IMG/VR virus record: IMGVR_UViG_3300028592_000008
Coordinates: 8,428 to 72,427 of that record
Strand: one strand, 5' to 3'
DNA from: a virus
Length of the DNA: 64,000 bases
Below, piece after piece: positions 1 through 14,964 of this stretch. The notes beneath the pieces are model-generated. The model had not been told where the DNA came from and ran no database searches. It was given only the letters and a program-made list of their open reading frames with translations. A program made the position numbers and the translations under genes. How positions within the stretch are numbered: position 1 is the first letter of the stretch; the number at the start of each line of letters is the position of its first letter.

Positions 1-127
1 TGCGGGCGATCCGGCGGTTCATGGAAGGGCTGCCGATCCTCCCGGATTCGGGATTGACCGACCGGGGTGGGCAGGGGTAGATTTCCGCCGCTGATTTCTG
101 GAACGGGTTTGGACGCTTTGGGGAGAC

Positions 128-2011
128 ATGGGAATGGTCGAGATTCCGTCGTGGCTTTTCTGGTCAGTCTTTGTGTTGGCTTGGCTGCACGTGCTTGTTT
201 CGTTTTGGGTCCTGTGGCAGTGGCGCCGAGAGAAGTCCCGGGCCGATGCGTTCCGCCGAGTTGTTGAGAAGTATGAGGTTATTGTCGATCCAGGGGTCCC
301 GGTGGGGGCACCCGCGGGGCGGAGCGGGGCGAGCGAGCCGGAGTACATGACCGAGGCTTCGCGGCCTTCGGTGGCCGGGGAGGACGGGAAGAAGCTCGCG
401 GAGGACATGGTCGACCGTCAGCGGGAGCTCGATAAGTGCCGGGCGGAACTGACCAGCAAGGAGGAACTGCTCTCGGCTGAGATCGATCGGATCAGCGCGA
501 TCCGGCGGAACCTTGTCGCCGCGATGGAGGGCACCCGGGAGCAACTGAACTGGCTGGCCGGGCATCTCCGCCTGGAGCCACTGAAGATCGACGAGCCGAC
601 AGCGGACGCGGCGAAGCGGGTCGTGGCCGCGGCGGCTGAGAAGATTCGGGCGGCGACGCTGGAATCGCTCCCAGCGCCAGGCCCGGCGATCGTCGCCGTG
701 AAGGGGCTGGCTGAGACTGTTCTGGTCCGCCACGACGGCCGGGACGTGGCGTGCCTGAAGTGGAAGCCGCGACTCTGGGAGCCGCTCCCGGCCGAGTTCT
801 ACCACAAGGCCTCGGGGTCGGCCGGCTGGGCGATTCACAGGACCCAGCCGCAAGTCTCTGGGGAGTGGCTGAAGGTCTTCGGGGACGGGGAATTGGCCGT
901 TCCGCTCTCGGTGCAGGCACACAGCCCGGAACTTGCGGAGATCGCGAAACTGTCCTCCGTGGCCGACCCGCTGAAGGTCCGGGCGATCGAGATCGAGGAA
1001 GCCCTCAAGGCCGTGCGTGAGACCGCCGGGGTGTACCTCAAGGCTCACGACGTCGCGAAGATCGGGGCCGCCCGGAACCGCCTGCAGCGCCGGGTCGATG
1101 GGCAACTGAAGCAGATCCACAAGCTGCTGAAGTGCATCGAGCGGCTGAAGCAGGAGGTCATCTCCGCCGTAGCCCGGGAGGGGACGCAGGTCTCCAAGTT
1201 CAAGGCCGAGGCGGACGACTGGCGGGCGAAGTACGACGAGATGCAGGGGCGGATCGGGACCGAGCGGAACACCGCCCTCGGACAGCTAAACGCCGAGAAG
1301 GAGCGGCTTGAGAAATGCGGTAAGGAGGCGAAAGATCCAGTCAAGGAGGCCTACTTCGCCAGCATGGCTGATGCCTTCCTGCGGGCGTACCAGATCGTCA
1401 ACCGCTGCATCAAGCGGCGGGCCCCGGCGGGCGGATCGGCGGACGCTGGCCGGCGGGCGGCGACGGAGGTGGCCGTGGCCTGCGTGGAGGCGGCGATCGC
1501 GGCGGATGACGCTCCGCGGGAGATTGCTGTCAGAGGCGGATTGACAGCTTTTGCGAAGCCGTGGCACCCGAAGGCCGGAGACCTGCGTCCGGAGTTCTAT
1601 TTCTGGAGGGGGTCGAGGTCGGTGGACAATGCGTGGTGTACGCGAAGCATGCCGGTAAGCGAGGCGATCAACGAATGGGAGCTACAAGACCGGGAACACA
1701 TGGTCCCGTGCGACCATCCGCCGGCCGCGGAAATCGTTTCCCGGGAAACGCCGGCTCCTGGGACCGAGGAAAAAGCCTCTCCGGAGAAACCGAAGATCGA
1801 GCAGGGGGAGGTGTTCCGGGTCGGAACGGGGGAGTCCCTGGGGATCCACCAGTTCGTCCGGCTGAACCCCGGGGAGTGGCGTCCGGCGCCGCACATTGCG
1901 TGGTGTCCCGGGTGGGACCGCTTCTTCCGATTCGAGGTTCCCGGCTGGGTCCGGGAGGCGACGCCGTACCGTTTCTACCGCATTGCCACCGAGGAGGATC
2001 TGCTTCCATGA
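128..2011 (+). CDS. Membrane-anchored coiled-coil hypothetical protein
   Basis: 627-aa ORF; N-terminal TM segment (WLFWSVFVLAWLHVLVSFWVLW); coiled-coil stretches; ATGA overlap with next gene. Confidence 0.75.
   Translation: MGMVEIPSWLFWSVFVLAWLHVLVSFWVLWQWRREKSRADAFRRVVEKYEVIVDPGVPVGAPAGRSGASEPEYMTEASRPSVAGEDGKKLAEDMVDRQRELDKCRAELTSKEELLSAEIDRISAIRRNLVAAMEGTREQLNWLAGHLRLEPLKIDEPTADAAKRVVAAAAEKIRAATLESLPAPGPAIVAVKGLAETVLVRHDGRDVACLKWKPRLWEPLPAEFYHKASGSAGWAIHRTQPQVSGEWLKVFGDGELAVPLSVQAHSPELAEIAKLSSVADPLKVRAIEIEEALKAVRETAGVYLKAHDVAKIGAARNRLQRRVDGQLKQIHKLLKCIERLKQEVISAVAREGTQVSKFKAEADDWRAKYDEMQGRIGTERNTALGQLNAEKERLEKCGKEAKDPVKEAYFASMADAFLRAYQIVNRCIKRRAPAGGSADAGRRAATEVAVACVEAAIAADDAPREIAVRGGLTAFAKPWHPKAGDLRPEFYFWRGSRSVDNAWCTRSMPVSEAINEWELQDREHMVPCDHPPAAEIVSRETPAPGTEEKASPEKPKIEQGEVFRVGTGESLGIHQFVRLNPGEWRPAPHIAWCPGWDRFFRFEVPGWVREATPYRFYRIATEEDLLP
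1735..1750. repeat. 16-bp palindrome CGTTTCCCGGGAAACG, copy 1 (parS/NBS-like)
   Basis: Exact palindrome read from sequence; 10 exact copies found in window. Confidence 0.95.
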
Positions 2012-2406
2012 ACGTCAACCGCGAAATCCTGTTCTTTGGTGGCCCGGCGCACGGGATGGTCCAGACGATGCCAGACAGTGCCTTGAGCATTCCGTGCATT
2101 ATCCAGCAGCGGGACGACGTGGACATCTGCCGGGCGTTCTCGCCGGCTTGGATCGACGTCCCGATGAACTGGCTGCAGCGGCTTGCCGCGACGCTCTTCT
2201 TGATCCCGCGGCGTGTCCTGAAACCATCCGAGCACTTCAAGCCGCGGGAGGTCAGATACCGTGCCGTGGGGCTATACCGCCATCCTGAGACCTGGGCGGT
2301 GATGACCGTCGACGGGAAGCCCCTGGAGGGGCAGGATCTCGCCGACGCAGCCTACTACATCGACTCCCGGAGGCTGCAGCCGGTCGAGCGGTATCCGATA
2401 CGCTGA
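2008..2406 (+). CDS. Hypothetical protein
   Basis: ATG at 2008 with GAGGAGG upstream, overlapping previous stop; FFGGPAHG motif common in small phage proteins. Confidence 0.7.
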   Translation: MNVNREILFFGGPAHGMVQTMPDSALSIPCIIQQRDDVDICRAFSPAWIDVPMNWLQRLAATLFLIPRRVLKPSEHFKPREVRYRAVGLYRHPETWAVMTVDGKPLEGQDLADAAYYIDSRRLQPVERYPIR

Positions 2407-2417
2407 TTCGTGGTCAA

Positions 2418-2491
2418 TGGGGCGTAGCTCAATCGGTAGAGCGATCGAGGTGCATGCCTGAGAGATGCCGGTTCGAGTCCGGCCGCCCCTA
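2418..2491 (+). tRNA. Atypical tRNA or pseudo-tRNA (anticodon ambiguous, possibly CAT)
   Basis: Acceptor GGGGCG/CGCCCC, D arm GCTC-AATCGGTA-GAGC, T arm GCCGG-TTCGAGT-CCGGC; irregular anticodon arm; no CCA. Confidence 0.75.
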
Positions 2492-2528
2492 CTCCCGGAA
2501 TTCCCGGGCAAATTGAAAGGACACTGCA

Positions 2529-2720
2529 ATGCTGGTTCTGAGCCGCAAAGAGGGTGAGTCGATCATCATTGGGGATGGGATCGAGGTGAAGGTCGTCGAC
2601 ATCGACGGCAACAAGGTGCGGATCGGCATCGAGGCGCCGCGGAACGTATCGGTTCACCGCAAGGAGGTTTACGACGCGATGAAGCGTGAAGCGAAGGAAG
2701 GAGGCAGCCGTGGGGCTTGA
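2529..2720 (+). CDS. csrA: Carbon storage regulator CsrA/RsmA
   Basis: [23 protein letters not shown]...[19 protein letters not shown] is the CsrA signature. Confidence 0.97.
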
Positions 2721-3600
2721 AACTGGGATTAGCTGGACCGACTACACATGGAACCCATGGCAGGGCTGCACGAAGATCAGTCCGGCGTGCGCGAATTGCT
2801 ATATGTTCCCGGGGATGTGGCGATGGGGCAAGGACCCGACAGTTGTCCGCCGCTCGTCTCCACAGACTTTCAATCTGCCGCTCAAGCGGAAGTCGGCGAA
2901 GAACGGCGGCGGATACGCGATGGAGCCGGGCAAGTGGGTGTTCACCTGCTCGTGGTCCGACTGGTTCCACAAGGACGCGGACCCTTGGAGGGACGAAGCC
3001 TGGGCAATCGTGAGGGCTCGCCCGGACCTGAACTTCCAGATCGTCACGAAGCGGACGGAGCGGATCAAGGACTGTCTGCCATCCGATTGGGGCGACGGAT
3101 ACCGGAACGTCATCCTGATCGCGACTGTCGAGAATCAGGAGTTCCTCGAAAAGCGGGTTCCGGACCTGTTCTCCGTCCCGGCGTGGCGTCGCGGGTTGTC
3201 GTGCGAGCCGCTGCTGGGGCCGCTCGATTTCCACCGCAGGTGCTTTGCCGACAACTGCCAGGGAGAGTGCGGATGGCCTTCTCCGTTCGATCTCCTTGGA
3301 GACAACAAAAACGGATCCGGCGCACTGATCGACTGGATCATCACCGGCGGGGAATCCGGAACAGGGGCGCGGCCATCGAATCCTCAGTGGTTCCGGGACG
3401 TCCGGGATCAGTGCTTCTTGGCGGGAGTTCCGTTCCACCACAAGCAAAACGGCGAGTGGGTGTCTGTCAGTGAGGTCGAGGGACCCGGGGAGCACTTCGC
3501 CTTCTCGGATCACAGGGTTGTGCGGCGGGTAGGTGTCGCCGCGGCTGGGAGAACGATCGACGGAAAGGTCTATGATGCCTTCCCGTCCATGGGAGCATAG
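2710..3600 (+). CDS. DUF5131 / phage Gp37Gp68 family protein (radical-SAM-like)
   Basis: [49 protein letters not shown] motifs. Confidence 0.92.
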
Positions 3601-3604
3601 GGAA

Positions 3605-4132
3605 ATGCGTCGTTTAAGCTGCGCGATTCTCCCGGACCTGTCGCGGGTCCGGGAGGTGACGGTGTTCTACAGGATGCGTTGGCGTTTCGTGCGGCCGGGG
3701 GACGAAGTCCTGCTGGTCGACCGGATCGCCAATCGATCGGGAGGCGAGGCGAAAGGCCTGTCGGTAGTCCGGGTCGTTTCGATCCGCGAGACCCGGCTTA
3801 TCGAGATGACGGCGGCGGCTGACGGCGGCCGGGCGGAGACGGACAGGTGCGGCTTTTGGGGGAAGACCCCGCAGGAGTTCGTGGACGCGATGTGTGACGC
3901 GCACAAGACCGATCCGTGGTACATGATCTCCCGGATCGAGGTGGAGCACGCGGAGCCGCTTCCGGAGCCGAACTTCCGCGGGTATCTCCCGATGGACGTT
4001 CACCCCGCCCCGGAAGGTCGCGTCGCCAAGGCGATGCGAAACGGGATCGCCGCCATGACGAAGTCTCCCAACGAGGATGACATCGAACGCTGGGATGACG
4101 ACGGCGGCCCGGCAGTGGAGACCGAGCAGTGA
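3605..4132 (+). CDS. ASCH/PUA-like domain protein
   Basis: RWRFVRPGDEV...VVRVVSIRETRL...GFWGKTPQEFVDAMC...ISRIEVE resembles phage ASCH families. Confidence 0.6.
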   Translation: MRRLSCAILPDLSRVREVTVFYRMRWRFVRPGDEVLLVDRIANRSGGEAKGLSVVRVVSIRETRLIEMTAAADGGRAETDRCGFWGKTPQEFVDAMCDAHKTDPWYMISRIEVEHAEPLPEPNFRGYLPMDVHPAPEGRVAKAMRNGIAAMTKSPNEDDIERWDDDGGPAVETEQ

Positions 4133-4632
4133 TCTTGCTGGCAATCGACCCCGGGAGCGCGGAGACCGCCTGGGTCAAAATCGAGCGTGAGACCGGGCGG
4201 ATCTGCGGGAAGGAGATCGTCGAAAACGACGCCTTCCGGCTGCAGCTCTGGCGGCGCGAAATCGACGGGTACGACCGGATCGCGCTCGAGTATTTCCAGC
4301 CGCGCGGGATGCCGACCGCTGCGGAGGAGATGGACACGATCTTCTGGTCCGGCCGCTTCATCGAGGCGGCGGGCCGGGACTGGGACAAGGTGTTCCGGAT
4401 GCAGGAGAAAATCTCCATCTGCGGGCACGGCTCGGCGACGGACTCCAACATCTCCACGGCGCTCCGGGATATGTACGGGGGGCAGAAGGAGGCCAAGGGG
4501 CTCAAGGCGAGCCCGGGGCCGCTGTACGGGTTCAAGGACGACCTGTGGGCGGCCCTGGCAATCGGAGTGACGTGGTTTCGTCGGAACGGGAGCCCGGAGT
4601 GGGTTCCGAACCTCGAGGAGATTCGGAAGTGA
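4129..4632 (+). CDS. RuvC-like Holliday junction resolvase
   Basis: LAIDPG, IALE and C-terminal DLWAALAI catalytic pattern. Confidence 0.8.
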   Translation: MILLAIDPGSAETAWVKIERETGRICGKEIVENDAFRLQLWRREIDGYDRIALEYFQPRGMPTAAEEMDTIFWSGRFIEAAGRDWDKVFRMQEKISICGHGSATDSNISTALRDMYGGQKEAKGLKASPGPLYGFKDDLWAALAIGVTWFRRNGSPEWVPNLEEIRK

Positions 4633-5048
4633 ACTACACGTTGGACGCTCTGGACAGCCAGGCAATCACGATGATCTCGCGCGGCGTCGGGACCCTCCGG
4701 ATTTCGGAGGCTGCGAAGCGGAAGATCATGGCGGCTTGGAAACCGCCGGATCACATGCGGCATCCGCTTATCTCATTCGAGGGGCTGCTCGGCCTGGGGA
4801 TCGACGTCACGGTGGACCCGTCGATGCCGATCTTCGTGAAGTCGAACCGCCTGCGTTCCCGGGACCGCTTCACGCTCTTCGAGGCCGCGGACGCCGATTG
4901 GGCGGTGGCGGCCGGGCTCGCGGAGTGGGAGCTGGACGAGGTCCATGCCGTCTGGTTCGACGAGCTGCGTCTTCAGTTCTACCGCTCGCACTACAACTTC
5001 GGGGTGAAGTTGATGGAGCCGCGGGGATTCATCCGGGGGCTCGCGTAG
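4629..5048 (+). CDS. Hypothetical protein
   Basis: GTGA-coupled ORF with typical codon usage. Confidence 0.6.
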   Translation: MNYTLDALDSQAITMISRGVGTLRISEAAKRKIMAAWKPPDHMRHPLISFEGLLGLGIDVTVDPSMPIFVKSNRLRSRDRFTLFEAADADWAVAAGLAEWELDEVHAVWFDELRLQFYRSHYNFGVKLMEPRGFIRGLA

Positions 5049-5049
5049 C

Positions 5050-5268
5050 GTGAAGCAGTTTCAGATCAGCGAGGAAGACCTGCAGTCCCTCGAGCACATT
5101 CTCCCGGCCGTGCTGTGGAAGCTGACCTGCAGGCCAGATGCGGACCCGCAGGATCGCGTCCACTTCCGTCAGGTCCGGGGCATCCTGACAAACGTGCGAT
5201 GGGGATACTGGCCCCCGGAGAACGTAGAGATCATTCCGCCAGGGGAGACTGACCATGCTGCTGAGTGA
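5050..5268 (+). CDS. Hypothetical protein
   Basis: 72-aa ORF tightly packed in operon. Confidence 0.6.
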   Translation: MKQFQISEEDLQSLEHILPAVLWKLTCRPDADPQDRVHFRQVRGILTNVRWGYWPPENVEIIPPGETDHAAE

Positions 5269-6001
5269 GTTTCAGGCGTTGCCATTTCAGGACGCCGCAC
5301 TGAATTGTGGGCAGAAGATCCAGATCATCCGCGGGGGCAATCGGTCCTCGAAGAGCCTGGTCGCTGCCGTGAAGGTGGCCGCCGCGCTGACCGGGGAGAC
5401 GGTGAAGCTGTCCAACGGGGCGGGCGTGGCGTACACCCCGGCGAAGCGGGTCTACTGCGCCGGGAAGGACTTCGAGCACGTCTCGGAGAAAATGGCGGCG
5501 CCGCTGTTCGGGTCGGCCATCGGAATCGGGGAGGCCCCGGGACTGATCGCCGCCGACAAGATCGAGATGGTTTCGTGGTTCAACAAGACGCTTGGCTGGC
5601 CGGCGATGGTCCGGCTGAAGAGCGGTGCCGAGGTTGTTTTCGGACAGGGATTCAGCAATCACGGGTTCCGCTTCGCGATCATCTGGGCAGACGAGAAGGT
5701 GCTCAGCGACGGGCGGCTCCTGTCGATGGTTGCGCAGGCCGACGTCTTCATCTGGTCGACCTGGCCGGACTCGACGAACGACGAGCTCCGGAGGCTGTGC
5801 AAGCTGGCGGCGGAGACCGGCGCGGAGTTCGTCTTCCGGATGCAGGACAACACCACGATCTCCGAAGAGAAGCGGGCGTCGATCCTGGAGACGTGGGGAG
5901 CATTGGGGTCGCAGCATTTGCAGGCCCGGAACCTCGGCGAATTCCCGGCCGATCCGCCGGCCGAAGAGAAAGCTCTTGACACGGAGAAGCCGGCCCCCTA
6001 G
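5255..6001 (+). CDS. Terminase large subunit ATPase-domain paralog (no nuclease domain)
   Basis: IIRGGNRSSKS, IWADEKV, WSTWPDSTN, LETWGALGSQHLQARNLGEF align by eye with TerL at 15596. Confidence 0.85.
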   Translation: MLLSEFQALPFQDAALNCGQKIQIIRGGNRSSKSLVAAVKVAAALTGETVKLSNGAGVAYTPAKRVYCAGKDFEHVSEKMAAPLFGSAIGIGEAPGLIAADKIEMVSWFNKTLGWPAMVRLKSGAEVVFGQGFSNHGFRFAIIWADEKVLSDGRLLSMVAQADVFIWSTWPDSTNDELRRLCKLAAETGAEFVFRMQDNTTISEEKRASILETWGALGSQHLQARNLGEFPADPPAEEKALDTEKPAP

Positions 6002-6004
6002 TGT
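5976..6004 (+). promoter_or_regulatory. Sigma70-like promoter
   Basis: TTGACA-17 nt-TAGTGT. Confidence 0.65.
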
Positions 6005-6080
6005 TCCGCCGGTGACGCCTTCCTGTCCTCAACCGGGAAGTCGAAAATTTGATTTTGCATTTCGTAGGCTTCGGCCTGCG

Positions 6081-6540
6081 GAAATAAGCCCGTGTGGTTA
6101 GGCGAGTTGAGGCGCCTTCCACGCGGGCTATTTTCGTGGACTGAGGCGAATGAACGAGCCAAAGCTCTCATAGCGCCCATTTGCAGTTCTGGTTAAGCAC
6201 GAACCCCTGGGTGCGACCGGAGCCAAGCATATGGGCACCTTAACGCCCAAGGTATGTCGGGGACGTGAACGCCGGGAAAGGGTTATTTGCTGCCCGTGTC
6301 GATTGCAGGCGAAGGTCGCCGCGAAGCACGGGGTAAGGCGTAATTCCCCGGAGACATGATGTGGCGATGGTAGCCTAAACCTCGCTGGGCAATATCACCT
6401 TCCACCTTGTGTGGACACCGCATTAAGCGGAGCAACCGTCGTGAGGAATCAGGCTGAGTTCGCAGCGACGTTAAACAAATGCGGGGAGTAGCCCCACAAG
6501 CCATCACGCGCCGGGACCAAACCCTTAGCGCTCAAGCCGG
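6081..6540 (+). ncRNA. Candidate large structured non-coding RNA
   Basis: ORF-poor, lower-GC gap downstream of a promoter; many nested helices found by hand (see findings). Confidence 0.6.
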
Positions 6541-6597
6541 GACCGATGGACGCTGTTCTTTTGTTGGACGAACACTGGACTCTTTGAGGATTATGAC

Positions 6598-7029
6598 ATG
6601 CCACGTTACGAGCTTATCAATCCGAGCGACTACTACACCTTCGAAGCCCGGGACATCCTGATCGCCGGCGCGGTGACGATGTTCCTGAGTTCCAACTTCG
6701 GGGCGGTGCAGATCCACCCGGAGGGGGACGAGCGGACGCCGATGCTGTTCGGCTGGGAGGAGTGGTTCAAGTCGAAGGGGGTCGACCTGCATGATCCGAA
6801 GTGGACCCGGGAGAACCTGCAGGCGATCGCGGAGGCTTTCGAGTCGTTCGTCATCGGGGACCGGGCGGAGTACATGGCTGGGCTCGAGGCGACCCTGGAG
6901 GCAGACCGGCCGGCGTTCATCGAGAAGTGGAACAACGAGAAGCGGAGCAGCGTGAACGACATCGGGAAGGCCGCGCGGAGCTACGCGACTCAGTGTCGGA
7001 AGATGCTTGAGGCTGTGGCCGCGGGCTGA
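6598..7029 (+). CDS. Hypothetical protein
   Basis: 143-aa ORF, GAGGA RBS, YELINPSDYYTF N-terminus. Confidence 0.75.
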   Translation: MPRYELINPSDYYTFEARDILIAGAVTMFLSSNFGAVQIHPEGDERTPMLFGWEEWFKSKGVDLHDPKWTRENLQAIAEAFESFVIGDRAEYMAGLEATLEADRPAFIEKWNNEKRSSVNDIGKAARSYATQCRKMLEAVAAG

Positions 7030-7064
7030 GTCGCCCGGGATCGAACACTGGACGCTGGGAGTCG

Positions 7065-7373
7065 ATGATGGTGACGCCGATCGGCCCGGATGACGTGGTG
7101 GCAAACCGCGGGGTGACGACGATCCCGCAGGCGGTGATCCTCGCCTTCAACCGTCTGATCGAGGGGCGGTGGGACGGGGTGCAGGCCCGGTTCACGCGGT
7201 CGGATGCGGTCGGAGCGATCTGGGCGGCGACGGGTCTGTGCGAGCAGGAGATGTTGCACGCCCGGCATCTGGACATTGAGCCGCTGTACCGGGACGCTGG
7301 GTGGAAGGTGACGTACGAGGCCCCGGAGATCGGGGAGACGTGGGAAGCCCATTACGTTTTCGAGGTGCGGTGA
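7065..7373 (+). CDS. Hypothetical protein
   Basis: 102-aa ORF; LDIEPLYRDAGWKVTY motif typical of a small phage family. Confidence 0.75.
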   Translation: MMVTPIGPDDVVANRGVTTIPQAVILAFNRLIEGRWDGVQARFTRSDAVGAIWAATGLCEQEMLHARHLDIEPLYRDAGWKVTYEAPEIGETWEAHYVFEVR

Positions 7374-7783
7374 TGGACCCGGTGTCTTTTCAGATCGCTC
7401 TGCTGTTCGTCGTCCTGGGCGTCTGCGCGGCCGCGGTGTTGCGGAAGATGCAGGAGACCAGGGAGTTCGAGTTGCGGATGTTTCAGATCGCCGAGCGGTG
7501 GGACAATCGCTGCGACTATCGATGGCAGGACCGGGTCGAGATTGACCCTGTGAAGGCCGAGGAGGCGCACGACAAAATCGTCCGAGATCACAAGGCGTAT
7601 TTCATCGAACTCGAGTGGCGCCGTCTCGGCGCGGGAGGATCCAGTGGTGGCGAGAAACCAGAAGACTCAGCCGGACCCGGTGGCGGCGATGATCGGGCCG
7701 ATGCGTCGGGCGGCCCTGGCGGGGACGTATGCCGGGAAGGTGCCGACTCCGTACTTCATGTCGTGCCGCCGGGTGATTCCTGA
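7373..7783 (+). CDS. Hypothetical membrane protein
   Basis: TGATG coupling; N-terminal TM segment. Confidence 0.6.
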   Translation: MDPVSFQIALLFVVLGVCAAAVLRKMQETREFELRMFQIAERWDNRCDYRWQDRVEIDPVKAEEAHDKIVRDHKAYFIELEWRRLGAGGSSGGEKPEDSAGPGGGDDRADASGGPGGDVCREGADSVLHVVPPGDS

Positions 7784-8207
7784 GCTCGGGGTGAGCGTCT
7801 GCTTCACCCGGGACGTCGGGTATCACACGAGCGGCTGGTGGAAGAACCCGGACTACGAACGCTGCTTCCACCTGAGCCTCGCGTTCTACCATCCGTACTC
7901 GAACAACGAGCCACGGCCGCGGGACTACGCGATCACCGATCGGTTCATCCGCGGGTTGTACGGGGACGCCCGGCGGATGATCTGGTGCGAGCCTCCGTAC
8001 TCTGAGAAGGGGAAGCGGGAGGACATCTGGCACTACCGGCTGTTCTGCGACGAGGGGTGGCAGCCGATCAAGCCTCGCGGCGAGGTGTACGAGAAGGAGC
8101 TGACGGAGGCCGGCTGGAAGTCCTACAGCGACGTGCAGGCGGACGCACTGAAGAAGTCGCTCGCCGAACTGAACGGCTACATGCAGGGAGGCCGCGGCCG
8201 ACCATGA
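7644..8207 (+). CDS. Hypothetical protein
   Basis: 187-aa ORF, FTRDVGYHTSGWWKNPDYERCFHLSL. Confidence 0.75.
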   Translation: MVARNQKTQPDPVAAMIGPMRRAALAGTYAGKVPTPYFMSCRRVIPELGVSVCFTRDVGYHTSGWWKNPDYERCFHLSLAFYHPYSNNEPRPRDYAITDRFIRGLYGDARRMIWCEPPYSEKGKREDIWHYRLFCDEGWQPIKPRGEVYEKELTEAGWKSYSDVQADALKKSLAELNGYMQGGRGRP

Positions 8208-8479
8208 TCGAGGAAGGGGAAGTCCAGCCCGGCGTCCTGCGTCGCTGCGAAGCGTGCGGTCACCGGGACGACTACCCGGCCTACGCGGATCGGTGCATCG
8301 CCTGCAGCCATCGGTTCGGGGAAGCGATCTCCCGGGTCCCGGCGAAGGAATTCATGATCCTCTGGCACTGCGGGCCCTGCGATAAGTTTCACGAGTCCGA
8401 CTACCGTTTCGACGCCCGGTGTTCGTGCGGGAAGACGGGGATCATTGGGCGGGCGGAGCTGCCCGGGAGAGAGCCTTGA
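8204..8479 (+). CDS. Small Zn-ribbon protein
   Basis: CEAC, CIAC, CGPC, CSCG motifs; ATGA coupling. Confidence 0.6.
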   Translation: MIEEGEVQPGVLRRCEACGHRDDYPAYADRCIACSHRFGEAISRVPAKEFMILWHCGPCDKFHESDYRFDARCSCGKTGIIGRAELPGREP

Positions 8480-8856
8480 GTCTTTGCCCAGCGTTTGTTC
8501 GCGCCGAGGACGGCAATCTGTACCGGAACCCGACGATCCGCGGGGAGGACTGGTACGTCTGCTTCGATGATGACGATCCGCCGGAGTTGGTCGTCTTCGC
8601 GCCGACGTTCGAGCGAGCGTGGCGGAGGATGTGGACGCTGAAGAGGCAGCACGGATTCATCGGGTCGTTTCAGGAGTACTGGCACCCGGTCAGATATTCC
8701 TGGAGAAACGGCTGCCCGAAGAATCTGTCCGCATGGAGCCGGTTCTTCGGGTTGGCGGCGCCAATCCCTGTTCCTACTGACAGGGGCCCGGTGACAAACC
8801 TGAAGCGGGAGTACGTCCTGTACGATCCTGTGGCCGCTGGCCGAGAGGTGTGGTGA
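8476..8856 (+). CDS. Hypothetical protein
   Basis: TTGA-coupled ORF. Confidence 0.5.
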   Translation: MSLCPAFVRAEDGNLYRNPTIRGEDWYVCFDDDDPPELVVFAPTFERAWRRMWTLKRQHGFIGSFQEYWHPVRYSWRNGCPKNLSAWSRFFGLAAPIPVPTDRGPVTNLKREYVLYDPVAAGREVW

Positions 8857-9194
8857 TGAAGTACCTCGAGTCGATGCGAGCCGGCGACCCCGCGCGGTCC
8901 AAGGCGATGAAGAAGGCCAGGGCACGGTACGGTCGCATGCTCTGGAACGAGATGGCGAGGATGCGAACGGAGGAGGAGCGGAACGCTCTGATCCGGCGGT
9001 GTGGCGAGAAGGCGTGTGAGCGTGGTCTCTACGCCAAGACGTACGGGTGGAAGCTGGCCGGGTGCGCGCTGGTCAGGTGGGCAGTGACCAGGATGTCCAG
9101 CCTTGAGAGCTATCACGAATGGAAGAACCGGGTCGGATTCATTCCTTACGCGGGCGGGTTCACCCGGCTGCGGCTGATGAGGGATGCCGGATAG
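8856..9194 (+). CDS. Hypothetical basic protein
   Basis: TGATG coupling, GAGGT RBS. Confidence 0.6.
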   Translation: MKYLESMRAGDPARSKAMKKARARYGRMLWNEMARMRTEEERNALIRRCGEKACERGLYAKTYGWKLAGCALVRWAVTRMSSLESYHEWKNRVGFIPYAGGFTRLRLMRDAG

Positions 9195-9201
9195 AGATCA
9201 T

Positions 9202-9371
9202 TTCGCCGCGGACTGGAACGGCTTGTAAACAGGTGCCGGGAAAGACCCACCCGGGGGCAATAGGAGCTCCCGGCCGCGGCGAACGTAGGGGCAGTCACCG
9301 ACCCGAAGTGCGAACTCGAGCGCCTGGGGGTGAGCGTGTGGGGGTTGCCGAGCATGGACGCAAAAGCCCCT
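9202..9371 (+). ncRNA. Candidate structured RNA or leader
   Basis: TTCGCCGCGG/CCGCGGCGAA and AGGGGC/GCCCCT each close a multibranch domain in an intergenic gap of about 195 nt. Confidence 0.5.
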
Positions 9372-9390
9372 TGTTTCGTAGGCTGATGCA

Positions 9391-10728
9391 ATGAAAACTC
9401 TGACCTACCATTGTTCCCGGGAACCGAGGCCGCAGGACGTCGAGACTGCCTACCTCGAGGCTCGAGGCCTGGCGGGTCCGGCGAGTTTCTGGGACAGGGC
9501 TGGCGGGAAGAAGGGTCCGTTCACCCAGCGGCGCGATGGCGGCCGGCTGATGGCTGATCTTGGGCCCGGCGACCATGTCGTCTTTCGGTCGATCGGCTCG
9601 GCGTTCGGAAGCCTGGCTGACTGGCGGGACACGGTGCGGCTGATGCTGGTCCGCGGGGCGACGGTCCATTTCATCGGCGAGGGGCTGGTCATCTCCCGGG
9701 AATCTTCGTGGGTCGTGGGGACCGTGCTCGACGTCTACCTCCGCTTCGTGGCCGAGTTCGCGTCGGCGGACCGGCGGCGGCCGACGGAACCGTGCTCACA
9801 GCGGAAGCGGCGGTGTTCCGGAGGTGAAGTGGAGATTCCGGCCGGGAAGTTCGACGAGCTGTTGCGCCAGCAGAAGTGGGGCGACTGCCGGTTCCCGGCG
9901 ACGACCGGGACACGGCACTCATACGCCATGCTGGAGGAGCCGCCGCGTTTCCCGGGAAACGATTTCCGGTACTGGCGCGAGGTGCGATACCTCCACACGC
10001 AGTACCCGTTCATCGAGCGTCCGGAGGGGAAGCGGCTGGTGCTGCGGGCCAAGCCAGGCGACGCGATGTTCGTCTGCGCCGGAAAGGCCTTCCGTTCTGT
10101 CGAAGACATGGTCTCCGCTTCCCGGACGCTTGCCGCCATTGGTGTCTCGGTGACGATCACGGACTTCGGGATCACGACGCTGGCCGAGGAGGGGCGCGCC
10201 CTGATGAACCTGCTGGCGGTGTACGACATCTTGGCCCGGCGGCGGAAGTCGGAAGAACGCAAAGAACGCGGGCAGCGGAAGCAGATAACGATGGAGCTCC
10301 CGTTCTACCTGAAACGGCGGCCGAACGGGCGGGTCGTCATCAACGAGTTCCGGCTGTGGGGCGTCCTGCAGGTTCTCAATCGTCGGGAAATGAGGGGGAT
10401 CGAGCTCGAGGACTGGATGGAAGAGCAGGAGGCCGAGCACTTCGGGGACCGGAAGCTGCCCCGCCACACGATCAACCGGCGGGCCAGGTATCGCTGGCAC
10501 CCGGATCACGGCACGCTGCTTCGGCACCCGGGGCGCGGATACTGCCGGTCGCGATTCTGGCACAAGGCCCGGATCAACGACATCCGTCGCGCGGGGCTGG
10601 AGCCGGTGAAGACCATGCTCGCCCAATACGGAATTCGTTTCCCGGGAAACGATATGCCCCGGCCACCGAAGGCCAGCCGGCGGAAGCGGGGAGTCACGAG
10701 CGGAACTGATTCCAGTCAGCCAGAGTGA
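9391..10728 (+). CDS. Protein with two tandem degenerate serine-recombinase (resolvase) domains
   Basis: PFTQRRDGGRLMADLGPGDHVVF...RGATVHFI and PFIERPEGKRLVLRAKPGDAMFV...EGRALMNLLAVYDILARRRKSE; catalytic YxRxS and DR motifs absent. Confidence 0.7.
   Translation: MKTLTYHCSREPRPQDVETAYLEARGLAGPASFWDRAGGKKGPFTQRRDGGRLMADLGPGDHVVFRSIGSAFGSLADWRDTVRLMLVRGATVHFIGEGLVISRESSWVVGTVLDVYLRFVAEFASADRRRPTEPCSQRKRRCSGGEVEIPAGKFDELLRQQKWGDCRFPATTGTRHSYAMLEEPPRFPGNDFRYWREVRYLHTQYPFIERPEGKRLVLRAKPGDAMFVCAGKAFRSVEDMVSASRTLAAIGVSVTITDFGITTLAEEGRALMNLLAVYDILARRRKSEERKERGQRKQITMELPFYLKRRPNGRVVINEFRLWGVLQVLNRREMRGIELEDWMEEQEAEHFGDRKLPRHTINRRARYRWHPDHGTLLRHPGRGYCRSRFWHKARINDIRRAGLEPVKTMLAQYGIRFPGNDMPRPPKASRRKRGVTSGTDSSQPE
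9946..9961. repeat. 16-bp palindrome, copy 2
   Basis: CGTTTCCCGGGAAACG exact. Confidence 0.95.
10636..10651. repeat. 16-bp palindrome, copy 3
   Basis: CGTTTCCCGGGAAACG exact. Confidence 0.95.
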
Positions 10729-10912
10729 CGTAAACTACGCCGCCGATTTCCTTTGAGCCGAGAATGCGGGTCGAGCCGTTCTGCAATTTGGCTCCAACTT
10801 TGATCCATCGGTAGATCGTCCGAGCGCTCTTGACGATCCCGAATCGCTCCTGCAGGACCCGGACGAAATTCGCCACCGTCCACTCTTCGGGTGCCTTGCT
10901 TCGCTTTGCCAT
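10694..10912 (-). CDS. Excisionase-like winged HTH (DUF1580-like)
   Basis: KSARTIYRWIKVG...LGSKEIGGVVYVT pattern; start taken at MAKRSK. Confidence 0.65.
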   Translation of the reverse strand: MAKRSKAPEEWTVANFVRVLQERFGIVKSARTIYRWIKVGAKLQNGSTRILGSKEIGGVVYVTLADWNQFRS

Positions 10913-11010
10913 TTCGTGACATCCATCGGGGGATGATTGCGTGAAGGGAATCTGGGGAGCCATCGTAATCGCCTGCGGCGGGAAGTTCTAACTCACGGTG
11001 ACACGCGATT

Positions 11011-12303
11011 ATGGCACGTCCAAGATCAACCAAAGGGGCTCAGACAGCGACCGGCCCGGCCGCCGCGCCGAGCGTGAAGGACGAACGGGCTCCGTCCATG
11101 CGGGAGCTCGGCGAGCAGGTTCTCGCCGGCCGCAGCGAGACGGACTCGAACGCCAGCGACGCCGCGGCAAGTGCGGCCCTCGGCGGAGTCCCAGGTGCCA
11201 GCGACGACGTTGAGGAAGACAGTCCGCTCTCGACCGACGATTCGGACTTCGGCGTGCAGGCTCAGGGGCAGGACGGCGACATCTTCGAGGACGACGATGT
11301 CCCTGCTCAGGGGCAGCAGGACGGCCAAGCTCCTCCGTCCCGCGCGATCGCCGAGGCGTTCAAGGCCCGGAACATGGGCTGGGACGAGGACGTCACCGAC
11401 GAAGACATCATCGCGGAATTCCAGCACACGAACACGCTGCTCGCCCAGCAGCAGGAAGAGCTCAACTGGTATCGGCAGCAGGCCGCAGCGGGCGGCCAGG
11501 GGAATCAGGGTGCAGGCTCAGCCGCTCCGGCGCCGGGCACGGGCGCGACCGGGGGGGCGTCACCTGCCCCCGGCGCGCCTAAGTTGCCTGAGTTCAAGGT
11601 AGACGCGCCGGAGTGGGACCCGGCGTGGGAAGCCGGCCTGAAGGTGGACGAAGAGGGCACGATCGTCGCGAAGCCCGGCTGGGATCCGAGCTTGCCCGGG
11701 AAGTACAACCGCTTCAAGCAATGGGAATCGCAGCAGATTTCCACCTTGGCCCGGAACCCGTACCTCCTGCAGATGGCTCAGAATCCGCAGGCGTTCCTCG
11801 AGCAGATCGTTCGCCCGATGGCCGAGCAGATCGCCACCGCCCGGACGAACGAGCTGGCCGGTCAGTACCAGCGTCAGAGCGAGGACGCCTACATCAACCA
11901 GATCCGGGCTCAGGCCGGGTATCTGAACACGAACGCCGCTGGGCAGGTCGTTCGGCACGCGAAGACCGGGCAGGTCATGCTCACCCCGGAGGGGCAGGCG
12001 TTCGAGCGTGAATTCGCCGCGCTCCTTCAGGACGCCCCGGGGATGTCCCGGGTCAAGGCTGCCGAACTCGCCTCCCGTCTGCACCCGCCGCGCAAGGCCG
12101 CGGCCCCGGCCCGGCAGACCAACGGCGGTGCGGCTCCGGCTCAGCGTGCGACGAGCCCGACGTACGGGCAGCGTCTCGGGGGAACCGTTCATCAGCCGCG
12201 GCGGACCCCGGCAAATCGAATCCCGACTGACGGTCGGGGTCTCCCGGATCAGCGAGCTCTCGGAGAAGCGTACCTCCGGGAAAAGCAGTCCGGGGCGCAG
12301 TGA
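11011..12303 (+). CDS. Probable capsid scaffolding protein
   Basis: Acidic, low-complexity and helical; directly upstream of major capsid gene. Confidence 0.7.
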   Translation: MARPRSTKGAQTATGPAAAPSVKDERAPSMRELGEQVLAGRSETDSNASDAAASAALGGVPGASDDVEEDSPLSTDDSDFGVQAQGQDGDIFEDDDVPAQGQQDGQAPPSRAIAEAFKARNMGWDEDVTDEDIIAEFQHTNTLLAQQQEELNWYRQQAAAGGQGNQGAGSAAPAPGTGATGGASPAPGAPKLPEFKVDAPEWDPAWEAGLKVDEEGTIVAKPGWDPSLPGKYNRFKQWESQQISTLARNPYLLQMAQNPQAFLEQIVRPMAEQIATARTNELAGQYQRQSEDAYINQIRAQAGYLNTNAAGQVVRHAKTGQVMLTPEGQAFEREFAALLQDAPGMSRVKAAELASRLHPPRKAAAPARQTNGGAAPAQRATSPTYGQRLGGTVHQPRRTPANRIPTDGRGLPDQRALGEAYLREKQSGAQ

Positions 12304-12370
12304 TCGGTCCGGTTTCACTTTCAGGTTTCATGTAACTGCCGGGTGACCCCGGATCACGAGGAGTCCAGCG

Positions 12371-13528
12371 ATGGCGAACTTGGTGCCGCAGACGACTGAC
12401 GAAGCGACGGAAGTCGCGCGGGCAACAGCTCCGACCTTCATCAAGGGGTTTGCGGACCTCACGATGCGGAAGCGGATTTGGATGGCCCTCCTGCGGAAGT
12501 ACGGTCGGGTCCTGTTCAACCAGGGCGGTCACACGACCGTCTGGGGTGTCCGGGTCCGGGAGGCGACGCCGCACACGATCGGGGCGAACCCGACGTTCGA
12601 CTTCAACTCCATCAACCGGAACGAGCAGCTCTCGCTCGACTGGCGTGGCTACGGGCACGAAGGCGTGCTGTGGGTGAAGGACAAGCTGATGAACGGCCAG
12701 GCTGGCGCGTCGCAGCTTTGGAACATGCTGAACGACCGCACGGAAACGCTCGCGGAAGAGTTCGCCCGCATGTTCAACCGCGAGATTTACGTTGACGGCG
12801 AAGCGGCCGGCAACGGCGAGCGGTTCCACGGTCGCGGGACGTTCCTGAACTACAAGGCCGGGGTGACCTCGGACGACCGCGTCGCTCTTCCGGACGGCAG
12901 TTACGCCGGCCTGTCGATCGAGCTCGGCGGCCTCGGCGGCTCCTGCACCAATGCGATCTCGGCCGGCGAGAAGCCGAACACCGACCTCGGGGCCGACTGG
13001 CCGGAAGGTCAGGCGACGGCGGACTTCGACGCGACGAGCCCGCTGATCCTGAACATCTCGTCGGATCGCTGGACGCCGGACGGCGGCACGACCTGGCGGG
13101 ACAACAACGAGGCGATTCTCTCGTACACCAACGAGATCCAGTCGGCTCGCGGCGCCCGGGAATCCCGGACGGCAGGTGAGGCTCCGATCCTCAACCTGAT
13201 GACGGCGAAGATGAAGAACGAGTTCGAGATGGGACAGCGCGGGCGGTTCCAGATCAACCTGCAGATGCAGGAGATGATCGACCTCGGATTCCCGGACACG
13301 TACCGCTACGAAGGTGCGGTGATCGCGGCGGACTACGAATGCCCGCACGGCGAAATGCACCAGCTTTCCCCGGGCACGATGGAGTACGCGGCGCTGACCG
13401 AGGACTACTGGACCTTCGAAGGTCCGACGTACCTCCCCGGGCAGATGAAGTGGATCTGGCTGCTGTACACCTACGGCAACTTCCGCTTCCAGCCCAAGTG
13501 TGAGGCGTTCGGCAAGAGCATCGCCTGA
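12371..13528 (+). CDS. Major capsid protein
   Basis: 385 aa, strong GAGGAG RBS, highly biased codons, HK97-like pattern (FNREIYVDG...FHG), position after scaffold. Confidence 0.8.
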   Translation: MANLVPQTTDEATEVARATAPTFIKGFADLTMRKRIWMALLRKYGRVLFNQGGHTTVWGVRVREATPHTIGANPTFDFNSINRNEQLSLDWRGYGHEGVLWVKDKLMNGQAGASQLWNMLNDRTETLAEEFARMFNREIYVDGEAAGNGERFHGRGTFLNYKAGVTSDDRVALPDGSYAGLSIELGGLGGSCTNAISAGEKPNTDLGADWPEGQATADFDATSPLILNISSDRWTPDGGTTWRDNNEAILSYTNEIQSARGARESRTAGEAPILNLMTAKMKNEFEMGQRGRFQINLQMQEMIDLGFPDTYRYEGAVIAADYECPHGEMHQLSPGTMEYAALTEDYWTFEGPTYLPGQMKWIWLLYTYGNFRFQPKCEAFGKSIA

Positions 13529-13608
13529 TCCGATCCTGCGTAGGGACCGGCAGTTCTGTTCGATAGAAAACCTGCGGCGAGGGCCGCAAACCTCTGAGGG
13601 GACGAGTC

Positions 13609-14631
13609 ATGGTGGATCAGGTTCAGAACATCACGAAGCTGGGGAGTGTCGACTTCATCGGCACTTCCAGCCGGAAGATGGGGCTGGTCGGGAAGTACAA
13701 GGACAACCAGCCGGACCCGTCCGCGCCGGGTGCTCCGCCGACGACCGATTACGAGCAGTGGATTCACGCTCTGACCGTCGTGAATCGTTCGGGCGGTCTG
13801 CTGCTTCCCGGCCGCCGGGTCATCTTCGAGGACGGCACGACCTACGCCGGTCCGTACCGCGCTATCTCCGGATACGCGGCTGCGGGTCAGCGTGGGGACG
13901 GCGTGGTTCCCTGGACCTGCCCGTCCGCTGGTGTCGGAAACGGGAGCGTCTTCAACATCATCACGAAGGGCCCGGCGAAGCTGGTGTTCGACGGGGTGAA
14001 CGTCGCGATCGCCAAGAACGACCTGATCGGTGGTTCGGCGGACGGGAAGGCGGCGAAGTACGGGTCGACGACTCAGGTCGCCAACTCGGCCACCTTCACC
14101 AACACGACCGACGCCGCGGACGTCGCGACGAAGCAGATCGCCCCGGCGAACGGGCTCAAGAAGTACGACCGCTTCCGGATCGTCATGGCCGGGACCTGCC
14201 CGTCGACGAACTCGACCGACACCCTGACGCTGCTCGCCAAGATCGGCGGACAGACGGCGGGGAGCACGGGCGCGATCGACGTCGCGAACAACGACCCGTT
14301 CGTCGCGGTTCTCGACTGCGTCGTCTGGGCGACCGGAGCGAGTGGTTCGATCCAGGTCACCGGATTCGTGGCCCTCAAGACAACGACCGTCCCGGTCTCC
14401 ACGACGCTGACCGTCGACACCACGGCGGCCGTCTCCGCGGCGGTCAACGCCGACTGGTCCGCGATCAGCACGAGCGACCAGTTCGTGGTGACCGCACTCT
14501 CGGTCGACTTCCAGGCCGGGACGGGACCGTTTGCCCTGCCGTTCGCCCGCGCACTCGAAGTCGTGGCGGCCGATGCGGCGGACGACACGCAGTTCAAGTG
14601 CATGGTCGACTTCGAATCGCCGATCGCCTGA
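13609..14631 (+). CDS. Capsid decoration/cement-like structural protein
   Basis: Follows capsid gene; Thr/Ala/Gly beta-rich; FNIITKGPA...IAKNDLI motif. Confidence 0.6.
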   Translation: MVDQVQNITKLGSVDFIGTSSRKMGLVGKYKDNQPDPSAPGAPPTTDYEQWIHALTVVNRSGGLLLPGRRVIFEDGTTYAGPYRAISGYAAAGQRGDGVVPWTCPSAGVGNGSVFNIITKGPAKLVFDGVNVAIAKNDLIGGSADGKAAKYGSTTQVANSATFTNTTDAADVATKQIAPANGLKKYDRFRIVMAGTCPSTNSTDTLTLLAKIGGQTAGSTGAIDVANNDPFVAVLDCVVWATGASGSIQVTGFVALKTTTVPVSTTLTVDTTAAVSAAVNADWSAISTSDQFVVTALSVDFQAGTGPFALPFARALEVVAADAADDTQFKCMVDFESPIA

Positions 14632-14713
14632 TCGAAGTCTCCCCCGGGGGCGTGAGATCGGATAGAGTTTTTGTGGGGCTCGATTCTGAGCTCAGTCCTC
14701 GAGGGGGTTTGAG

Positions 14714-14887
14714 ATGGCGAACGAAAACATGCAGCTCCGCCCGGACAAGGCGGCCAACAAGTATCCGAAGCTGCCGACTCGGGAGAACGCGACCGGAGGG
14801 GTGACGACCGGCCGGGCGAACGTCGAGCCGAAGTGCGACAAGTCAAGCAACGGGATCAAGGGCGAGTCCACCAAGGGCAAGTATTGA
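14714..14887 (+). CDS. Small basic protein (57 aa; not in ORF track)
   Basis: GAGGGGG RBS; MANENMQLRPDKAANKYPKLPTRENATGG...KGKY. Confidence 0.6.
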   Translation: MANENMQLRPDKAANKYPKLPTRENATGGVTTGRANVEPKCDKSSNGIKGESTKGKY

Positions 14888-14916
14888 TCCTTCTGCACGC
14901 GAAGCACTGAAGGGGG

Positions 14917-14951: not shown

Positions 14952-14964
14952 ATTGGGTGACACC

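What the first reader, a model, noticed from the sequence alone, without database searches (positions are those of the whole stretch)
6010..6560. Candidate large, highly structured ncRNA of about 450-550 nt with its own promoter
Seen: the only large ORF-poor gap, directly after TTGACA-17-TAGTGT. Hand-found helices: 6081-6097/6119-6135; GCCCATTTGC 6175-84/GCATATGGGC 6227-36 with nested stems; ACCTT 6237/AAGGT 6249; ATGTC+GGGGA 6254-63/TCCCC+GACAT 6345-57; CCCGTG 6293/CACGGG 6327; CTTGTG 6406/CACAAG 6495; CCGCATT 6418/AATGCGG 6478; CGTCG 6437/CGACG 6466. Possible pseudoknots: GCCCA 6245/TGGGC 6386 and AAGGGTT 6278/AACCCTT 6520. G-U pairs favour RNA on the plus strand. A 7-codon mini-ORF (6150-6173) with a GAGG RBS precedes the core. 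I did not see tmRNA, RNase P or group I/II intron signatures. Inference: a new large phage RNA comparable in scale to ROOL or GOLLD.
Basis: partly seen in the sequence, partly recalled or inferred. Interest (0 to 1): 0.78.

Follow-up and report, generated by a model that had tools for sequence, protein, structure and literature searches.

The report
Structured untranslated leader RNA in a soil phage
A 590-base non-coding stretch in an uncultivated soil phage starts at a good promoter and holds the strongest RNA hairpin in the genome, so it is probably a structured leader RNA for the genes downstream, but nothing yet shows it is one large folded RNA like ROOL or GOLLD.

Summary
The gap 6002-6597 is real and non-coding. 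It has no codon-position GC periodicity and the lowest GC of the window. A TTGACA-17-TAGTGT promoter sits at its start, one of four TTGACa/TAGNNT sites in the 72-kb phage, all on the + strand. Two hairpins stand out. Hairpin A (6061-6154, 38 bp, -58 kcal/mol, z -8) is the strongest local fold in the genome. Hairpin B (6175-6236) has z -4.8. Both are much better on the + strand (10 G-U pairs against 1 C-A mismatch). No Rfam family matches. No homolog turned up in GenBank phages or in the loci fetched from IMG/VR, JGI metagenomes and GTDB. One diverged relative in a soil run keeps 6182-6331 and 6401-6538 at about 91% identity, against about 84% for flanking coding pieces, and its visible changes spare or re-form helices. 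No + strand terminator follows, so I read it as a structured 5' leader running into gene 6598 and the head and packaging genes. A free-standing large ncRNA is not excluded. The upstream gene is a stand-alone paralog of the terminase ATPase domain.

The parts
5255..6001 (+). Upstream gene (248 aa): a stand-alone paralog of the terminase large-subunit ATPase domain. Walker A- and Walker B-like motifs are kept; there is no nuclease domain.
   Evidence: BLASTP to the phage's own TerL residues 57-316 gives 30% identity, E 2e-21. hhalign to TerL alignment A1 gives 99.8% probability. tblastn hits the TerL genes of 32 of the 81 related loci searched (80 IMG/VR loci plus the JC1 locus L002). Pfam and PHROGs give no hit. 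It finds only itself among proteins of 136-434 aa.
5976..6004 (+). Sigma-70-type promoter, TTGACA-17-TAGTGT. The -10 overlaps the TAG stop of the upstream gene. The inferred transcription start is near 6011.
   Evidence: The start site is inferred from the usual -10 to +1 spacing and was not measured.
6025..6032 (+). 8-nt segment perfectly complementary to 6584-6591, which holds the Shine-Dalgarno GAGGA of gene 6598. A possible anti-SD; a lead only.
   Evidence: It is in the MFE structure, but its ensemble probability is only 0.24. It was found post hoc.
6061..6154 (+). Hairpin A: 38 bp in five helices, 7 G-U pairs, one C-A mismatch, 8-nt loop.
   Evidence: -58 kcal/mol, z -8.0 on +; -36 kcal/mol, z -4.2 on -. 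Pair probabilities 0.88-1.0. Strongest 100-nt fold in the genome.
6150..6173 (+). 7-codon mini-ORF. Not supported as a gene.
   Evidence: Sequence. It lies partly inside hairpin A. The 6152-6181 stretch is only 17 of 30 identical to the X6 relative's loose end (my alignment by eye).
6175..6236 (+). Hairpin B: 22 bp, 3 G-U pairs.
   Evidence: -32.5 kcal/mol, z -4.76 on +; z -1.22 on -. Probabilities 0.94-0.96. The X6 changes at 6215 and 6216 keep both pairs, and the same structure scores -31.7 on the variant.
6237..6253 (+). Small hairpin. It changes at 5 stem positions in the relative and re-forms in a register slipped by one base.
   Evidence: Probability 0.61. Energy -3.1 in the window against -7.9 in the variant.
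6253..6358 (+). Domain C. The outer helices are uncertain. The inner hairpin 6293-6332 with tip 6308-6320 is robust.
   Evidence: z -2.4. Outer helices have probability 0.2-0.3; the inner ones 0.89 and 0.95.
6182..6538 (+). Core kept in a diverged relative from soil run X6. The pieces laid are 6182-6331 and 6401-6538. 6332-6400 was not covered.
   Evidence: 14 differences in 150 nt, and 11 differences plus 1 gap in 138 nt. Loose ends lie at 6182 and 6538. Noncoding identity 91.3% against 84.5% for coding pieces, Fisher p 0.012.
6401..6495 (+). Three small local hairpins: 6401-6415, 6418-6430 and 6483-6495.
   Evidence: Probabilities 0.77, 0.92 and 0.90. The region as a whole is not better than shuffles: z -1.48 for 6400-6500 and -0.26 for 6431-6556.
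6586..7029 (+). Shine-Dalgarno GAGGA 6586-6590 and downstream gene 6598-7029 (143 aa, PHROG 10705, function unknown).

Best explanation
The gap is the template of a structured, untranslated leader of about 590 nt.

A host-type sigma-70 promoter overlaps the stop codon of the upstream gene and starts transcription near 6011. The RNA folds into a string of hairpins. It runs, with no intrinsic terminator, into gene 6598 and on towards the capsid-like, terminase and portal genes.

I propose that it acts in cis on this transcript in three ways:
- Hairpin A, a nearly continuous 38-bp duplex 50 nt from the start, is a processing or stability site of the RNase III kind, or a pause or attenuation signal.
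- The conserved core 6182-6538 sets how much of the transcript, or of gene 6598, is expressed.
- The 5' segment 6025-6032 may mask the ribosome-binding site.

Shown: the region is non-coding; the promoter motif family; the + strand-specific hairpins; sequence constraint on the core in one relative; and the absence of a terminator-like site on the + strand.

Inferred: the transcript itself, its ends, the processing and the regulatory effect.
For: 1. Non-coding. There is no codon-position GC periodicity between about 6000 and 6597, while both flanking genes reach 0.9-1.0 at third positions. GC is 0.568, the lowest 500-nt bin of the window. The small ORFs have no family match. The X6 differences in the gap show no third-position excess (5/4/2). 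In the upstream gene 17 of 29 fall on third positions.
2. Promoter.
3. RNA-level hairpins on the + strand. Hairpins A and B hold 10 G-U pairs against 1 C-A mismatch, binomial p 0.006.
4. Constraint. The core is 91.3% identical in the X6 relative against 84.5% in coding pieces. The 30 nt outside each end of the core are much more diverged.
5. Three visible changes keep predicted pairs, all through G-U wobble: 6215 and 6216 in robust hairpin B, and 6265 in an outer domain-C pair whose ensemble probability was not computed (neighbouring outer helices 0.2-0.3). The small hairpin 6237-6253 re-forms.
6. No + strand terminator-like site between 6004 and 7340, and no strong one in 1-20000 (10 found, 11.8 expected). 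The phage does use a canonical hairpin plus U-run near 51118-51150.
7. Capsid-like, TerL and portal genes lie downstream on the same strand.
Against: No transcript data: no RNA run was listed as a holder, which says nothing either way. There is no set of homologs, so no covariation test is possible, and one relative gives only a handful of informative sites. That relative comes from low-depth contigs (2.8-5.5x). Only pieces at least 80% alike are laid, which biases the identity comparison, and phage mosaicism could also produce sharp identity boundaries. Hairpin A was not covered in the relative, so its conservation is unknown. The 3' third has no thermodynamic signal. The anti-SD helix has probability 0.24. 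A conserved core of about 360 nt is long for a simple leader and would also fit a processed stable RNA.
Confidence: 0.45

Rival explanations
1. A free-standing, trans-acting large non-coding RNA. The promoter makes a discrete RNA of 360-590 nt, or one is cut out of the leader. It folds into a defined architecture and works away from its own transcript, possibly with a phage protein.
For: It has its own promoter. The conserved core is about 360 nt and is more conserved than the neighbouring coding DNA. An invariant block of about 34 nt at 6266-6299 lies in the relative between variable, structure-compatible sites. No Rfam family explains it. GC is low relative to the genome, as is usual for RNA genes in high-GC genomes (the comparison is from general knowledge).
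Against: There is no terminator or other defined 3' end. No global fold is supported: long-range helices have probability about 0-0.3 and the 3' third has z about 0. No homologs were found in GenBank phages or among the 92 related or pattern-matched loci and 5 whole records searched, nor by exact patterns in IMG/VR and JGI metagenomes. ROOL and GOLLD are widespread families. The nearest tRNA gene is 3.5 kb away.
Confidence: 0.22
2. The functional part is only an intercistronic RNA hairpin pair (A and B) that processes or stabilises a polycistronic message arriving from upstream. The rest of the gap is spacer shared with the relative through recent common descent or recombination.
For: No terminator separates the upstream genes from the gap, so read-through is likely. 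The signal is concentrated in A and B. Mosaic boundaries are visible in the relative: sequence unlike the window begins directly upstream of 5255.
Against: It does not explain the promoter family member placed exactly at the start of the gap. It also does not explain why 6266-6299 and 6401-6538 are kept at 91-100% while 6152-6181 and 6539-6568 have drifted to roughly half identity.
Confidence: 0.15
3. A DNA-level element, such as a replication origin (possibly with a primer transcript), a packaging site or a protein-binding control region.
For: It is a long non-coding stretch with lower GC. It lies next to a terminase-ATPase paralog. A promoter that fires into a structured 550-nt region recalls plasmid primer RNAs (recalled analogy, not tested).
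Against: There are no iterons or repeat families; only two 9-nt two-copy repeats. One DnaA-box-like site lies in the gap, with 6 in the window against 6.7 expected; the box consensus is recalled. Cumulative GC skew shows no turn. The G-U bias shows selection on one RNA strand, not on duplex DNA. The real TerL and its upstream partner lie 9 kb away.
Confidence: 0.06
4. A decayed remnant of coding sequence, for example the lost nuclease half of the duplicated terminase gene, with no present function.
For: The upstream ORF is the ATPase half of a TerL paralog and stops where the nuclease half would begin.
Against: With all filters off, the TerL profile finds nothing in the six frames of 5900-6700 beyond the end of the upstream ORF; the best other E-value is at least 1. 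The composition is unlike coding DNA. The core is more conserved than coding flanks. Hairpin A is an extreme outlier.
Confidence: 0.05

Closest known systems
ROOL and GOLLD large phage- and prophage-associated RNAs
   Same: Several hundred nucleotides, non-coding, phage-borne, no known function.
   Different: No match to any Rfam model at gathering score, and no ROOL or GOLLD match even at E up to 10. No homolog family was found. No supported global fold. Not next to tRNA genes. The oligomeric-cage property reported for ROOL and GOLLD (abstract of bioRxiv 10.1101/2024.12.08.627333, seen in the listing) cannot be tested here.
Promoter-proximal leader RNAs of phage operons: lambda PR'-tR' 6S transcript, HK022 put RNA, P1 c4 and P4 CI RNAs processed from leaders (all recalled, not fetched)
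   Same: A constitutive-looking promoter followed by a structured untranslated RNA ahead of a long operon. A possible pairing between a leader segment and a downstream ribosome-binding site, as in c4-type control.
   Different: No Rfam hit to C4 or any other family. No terminator within the leader. At about 590 nt it is much longer. No antiterminator gene was recognised nearby.
RNase III processing hairpins of phage polycistronic mRNAs, such as T7 intergenic sites and lambda N leader or sib (recalled)
   Same: Hairpin A offers more than 20 bp of nearly continuous duplex in an intergenic position on the sense strand.
   Different: Cleavage is untested and the host is unknown.
phi29 packaging RNA (pRNA)
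   Same: A phage non-coding RNA in a genome that also encodes a packaging ATPase without a nuclease domain; here the 248-aa TerL-ATPase paralog lies directly upstream.
   Different: No Rfam match of any kind at E up to 10. This phage has a complete TerL. No evidence links the RNA and the paralog beyond adjacency.

Membership tests
Any Rfam 15 family (including ROOL, GOLLD, tmRNA, RNase P, group I and II introns, 6S, C4, pRNA, riboswitches) | Covariance-model score at or above the family's gathering score | tested here: not met
   Whole window: only two tRNAs. Region at E up to 10: best are MIR173 24.6 bits against 70, SAM_alpha 13.1 against 36, MIR3454 14.9 against 142. All are generic long-hairpin or short matches.
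ROOL/GOLLD-type large ornate RNA | A family of homologs with covariation-supported multi-domain structure | tested here: not met
   No homolog in GenBank phages, in 81 TerL-related loci, in 11 GTDB loci or in 5 whole records. Exact-pattern scans gave only chance hits. One partial relative came from reads only.
ROOL/GOLLD-type large ornate RNA | Location beside tRNA genes in phages or prophages (recalled feature) | tested here: not met
   The nearest tRNA (Cys, 2418-2492) is 3.5 kb upstream.
Independent sRNA/ncRNA gene | Own promoter and own terminator | tested here: inconclusive
   The promoter is present. There is no + strand terminator-like site before 7340. Processing could still create a 3' end.
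Cis-acting 5' leader | Promoter upstream, no terminator, same-strand gene with a ribosome-binding site directly downstream | tested here: met
   The transcript itself was not observed.
Replication origin | Iterons or DnaA boxes, an AT-rich unwinding element, a skew switch | tested here: not met
Protein-coding gene or pseudogene | Codon-position composition, an ORF with family match, or residual similarity to TerL | tested here: not met

The most novel reading that the evidence does not exclude
The conserved core 6182-6538, with or without hairpin A, is a new lineage-restricted large structured phage RNA. It is released from the leader and works in trans, possibly as the RNA partner of the adjacent stand-alone terminase-ATPase paralog. 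That would be an RNA-protein device loosely parallel to the phi29 pRNA and its packaging ATPase.
Probability: 0.1. Interest if true: 0.75.

Novelty: new variant of a known kind. Interest (0 to 1): 0.35.

Why it matters
If the reading holds, this is an unusually long and strongly structured leader at the head of the head and packaging genes of a phage lineage with no cultured member. It would be a handle on how such phages time or dose late gene expression.

The pairing of a terminase-ATPase paralog with a conserved structured RNA is odd enough to deserve a look if closer relatives can be fetched.

It does not yet add a new large RNA class. The evidence stops at two exceptional hairpins, a promoter and one partial relative.

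Tried and rejected
- **Relatives of the virus record:** they cannot be drawn.
- **Close relatives of the flanking proteins:** none in IMG/VR. The protein collection returned only the query itself. The 248-aa protein has none in GenBank phages. The 143-aa protein has four distant hits, and the one context checked (Burkholderia phage JC1) has no similar gap.
- **TerL as a single query:** no IMG/VR relative and no GenBank phage match.
- **TerL profile:** it gave 80 IMG/VR loci at 39% identity or less and 11 GTDB loci at 40% or less. nhmmer with the gap found nothing in them. BLAST in five whole records gave only 15-22-nt matches with E of 0.065 or more.
- **Exact-pattern scans:** the 17-mer 6274-6290 in IMG/VR gave 4 hits with no wider similarity. 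The 20-mer 6274-6293 in JGI metagenomes gave 1 hit, inside what I read by eye as an aminoacyl-tRNA-synthetase-like coding region. An 18-mer from hairpin A and a 20-mer from 6467-6486 gave 0 hits.
- **Sequencing runs:** no RNA holder was listed.
- **Runs X2-X4:** they gave identical pieces only, plus short pieces of 37-51 nt at about 80% identity that I treat as noise.
- **Genome-wide 588-nt fold scan:** it timed out and was repeated more sparsely.
- **Repeats of the gap elsewhere in the genome:** none longer than 13 nt exact or 15 nt with one mismatch.
- **Remnant of the TerL nuclease domain in the gap:** none.
- **Covariance model:** I did not build one, because only one full sequence exists.
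- **Null distribution for the re-formed small hairpin:** I did not enumerate random mutants; I chose to leave that step out.
- **Published catalogue:** Fremin et al. 2023 (PMC10690425, passages read) lists 8,495 candidate structured RNAs from IMG/VR. The catalogue keeps only motifs that match unique regions in several genomes, which makes inclusion unlikely.

Full report
**Context.** The window is bases 8428-72427 of a 72,427-base IMG/VR virus record that CheckV rates complete. GC is about 65%, and almost all genes in the window lie on the + strand. Logan contigs of four soil-metagenome runs hold the stretch as identical sequence: X1, the possible source, which holds all the sampled words, and X2-X4, which gave identical pieces when laid. 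The phage is isolated. Its large terminase has no tblastn match in GenBank phages. IMG/VR relatives are at most 39% identical. Relatives binned in GTDB MAGs of several phyla, four of them Planctomycetes-labelled, are at most 40% identical. The nearest relatives, at 51-55%, occur only in Logan assemblies that I could not fetch.

**Promoter.** TTGACA-17-TAGTGT at 5976-6004 is the only exact TTGACA-N16-18-TANNNT in the window, with 0.10 expected. Allowing one mismatch in the -35 gives four sites in the whole genome, at 54, 5976, 51009 and 51161. All are on the + strand, all carry TAGNNT and all sit at gene starts or in gaps. In 200 Markov simulations, 3% gave four or more sites on one strand and none gave four TAG-type sites. 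I therefore accept the promoter and infer a transcription start near 6011.

**Structure.** The 588-nt + strand fold has z -2.96, with 0 of 100 shuffles as good. Five coding windows of the same length gave +1.12, -1.30, +2.15, -1.48 and +0.90. Another gap, 51002-51589, gave -2.35.

The 25 kcal/mol advantage of the + strand over the - strand is not evidence. Across 160 windows of this genome the + strand is on average 25.0 kcal/mol better (sd 20), because of its G excess.

The signal is local:

| Element | Coordinates | + strand | - strand |
|---|---|---|---|
| Hairpin A | 6061-6154 | -58 kcal/mol, z -8.0 | -36 kcal/mol, z -4.2 |
| Hairpin B | 6175-6236 | z -4.76 | z -1.22 |
| Domain C | 6237-6372 | z about -2 | z about -2 |
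| 3' part | 6431-6556 | z -0.26 | z -0.04 |

In a scan of 2411 100-nt windows, hairpin A gives the two strongest + strand outliers, at -6.05 and -5.17 sd. The next is -3.6. From the helix list, hairpins A and B hold 10 G-U pairs and one C-A mismatch (p 0.006 under a symmetric null). This is the signature of selection on + strand RNA rather than on a DNA palindrome.

Ensemble probabilities are 0.88-1.0 for A, B, 6293-6332, 6308-6320, 6418-6430 and 6483-6495. The picture is a string of hairpins, not a demonstrated global fold.

**Known families.** Rfam 15 gives nothing at gathering score. At E up to 10 it gives only sub-threshold long-hairpin or short matches. ARAGORN finds no tmRNA.

**Rivals at the DNA level.** There are no iterons. 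DnaA-box-like sites are not enriched, using a recalled consensus. GC skew does not turn. No part of the gap is repeated elsewhere in the genome.

**Pseudogene rival.** The upstream ORF turned out to be a paralog of the ATPase half of the phage's own terminase: 30% identity, E 2e-21, hhalign 99.8%. The gap keeps no trace of the nuclease half.

**Comparative evidence.** No homolog of the gap was found in GenBank phages, in the 92 related or pattern-matched loci searched, in five whole related records or by four exact-pattern scans.

The only relative came from laying Logan contigs of run X6:

| Pieces | Differences | Identity |
|---|---|---|
| Gap 6182-6331 | 14 in 150 | |
| Gap 6401-6538 | 11 plus 1 gap in 138 | gap pieces together 91.3% |
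| Coding 5255-5467 | 36 plus 2 gaps in 213 | |
| Coding 7067-7099 | 2 in 33 | |
| Coding 7241-7304 | 10 in 64 | coding pieces together 84.5% |

Fisher's test on gap against coding pieces gives p 0.012. In the upstream gene, 17 of 29 listed differences fall on third codon positions. The 11 listed in the gap show no periodicity.

Just outside the core the relative drifts to roughly half identity: 17 of 30 matches before 6182, aligned by eye from the loose end. The core therefore looks constrained.

Of the 11 visible changes:
- 6215 and 6216 turn U-G into U-A and U-A into U-G in hairpin B.
- 6265 turns G-U into A-U.
- 6224 and 6244 lie in unpaired positions.
- Five changes in the small hairpin 6237-6253 re-create a 5-bp stem in a slipped register, with energy going from -3.1 to -7.9 kcal/mol.
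- The partner of 6255 was not covered.

Caveats apply. The contigs have low depth (2.8-5.5x). Only pieces at least 80% alike are laid. Some differences are not listed. 6332-6400 and all of hairpin A are uncovered. Phage mosaicism can mimic conservation boundaries. This is suggestive, not a covariation test.

**Mechanism.** No + strand terminator-like site lies between the promoter and 7340, and none of note lies in 1-20000. The phage does use a canonical hairpin plus U-run near 51118-51150. The simplest reading is therefore a leader that runs into gene 6598 (PHROG 10705, function unknown) and on to the capsid-like, TerL and portal genes.

Hairpin A, a nearly continuous 38-bp duplex, is the kind of substrate RNase III cuts (established knowledge; not tested here). 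The 5' segment 6025-6032 is perfectly complementary to 6584-6591, which holds the Shine-Dalgarno sequence. This helix has only 0.24 ensemble probability and was found post hoc.

I put 0.45 on a cis-acting structured leader. The rivals get 0.22 for a free-standing or processed trans-acting RNA, 0.15 for a hairpin-only processing element with the rest as spacer, and about 0.1 together for a DNA element or a decayed gene.

**Comparison and novelty.** It is not a member of any curated RNA family. It works most like promoter-proximal leader RNAs of phage operons and RNase III processing hairpins (recalled analogies). The ROOL/GOLLD comparison fails on every testable defining feature. It is a lineage-restricted, unclassified structured leader, that is, a new variant of a known kind. 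A published IMG/VR catalogue of candidate structured RNAs (PMC10690425, passages read) could not be checked, because its tables are in closed supplements.

Noticed in passing
window 5255-6001: A stand-alone 248-aa paralog of the terminase large-subunit ATPase domain. Walker A-like GGNRSSKS and Walker B-like IIWADE motifs are kept and the nuclease domain is absent. The genome also has a complete 583-aa TerL at 15596-17347. No other protein of 136-434 aa in the 5.8-billion-protein collection matched it.
   Followed up: partly
window 51009-51150: TTGCCA-17-TAGACT promoter, followed about 75 nt later by a canonical GC-rich hairpin and a run of six U (about 51118-51150). This is a candidate small RNA of about 105 nt with its own promoter and terminator. 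No Rfam family matched it in the whole-window scan.
   Followed up: partly
window 51161-51372: A second promoter of the same family (TTGACG-16-TAGAGT), followed by a structured leader of about 180 nt before coding periodicity resumes. The 588-nt window 51002-51589 has fold z -2.35.
   Followed up: no
G000:C1 about 5507-6649 (window coordinates -2921 to -1779, outside the window): A 1143-nt stretch without codon-position GC periodicity, near the switch from - strand to + strand genes. It also holds some of the strongest - strand local folds in the genome. Not examined further.
   Followed up: no
window 53611-56046: A series of 220-345-nt stretches without codon periodicity at normal or high GC (0.60-0.72), just upstream of the 1590-aa ORF 55853-60625.
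   Followed up: no
window 2418-2492 and 48000-48074: Two phage tRNA genes, Cys(GCA) and Trp(CCA). A TTGACA hexamer lies at 47858, 140 nt upstream of tRNA-Trp.
   Followed up: no
window 6480-6498, - strand: A terminator-like hairpin with a T-rich tail on the - strand inside the gap. The scan expected 1.6 such sites by chance in 5000-7500, and I did not see a sigma-70-like - strand promoter when reading the adjacent sequence by eye, so I treat it as chance.
   Followed up: partly
window 28413-30626: A 737-aa protein with a polynucleotide-kinase-like C-terminal part (PHROG 415, E 2.7e-13) and a weak phosphoribosyltransferase-like middle part (Pfam score below the cut-off). It may be an RNA or nucleotide repair or modification enzyme.
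   Followed up: no
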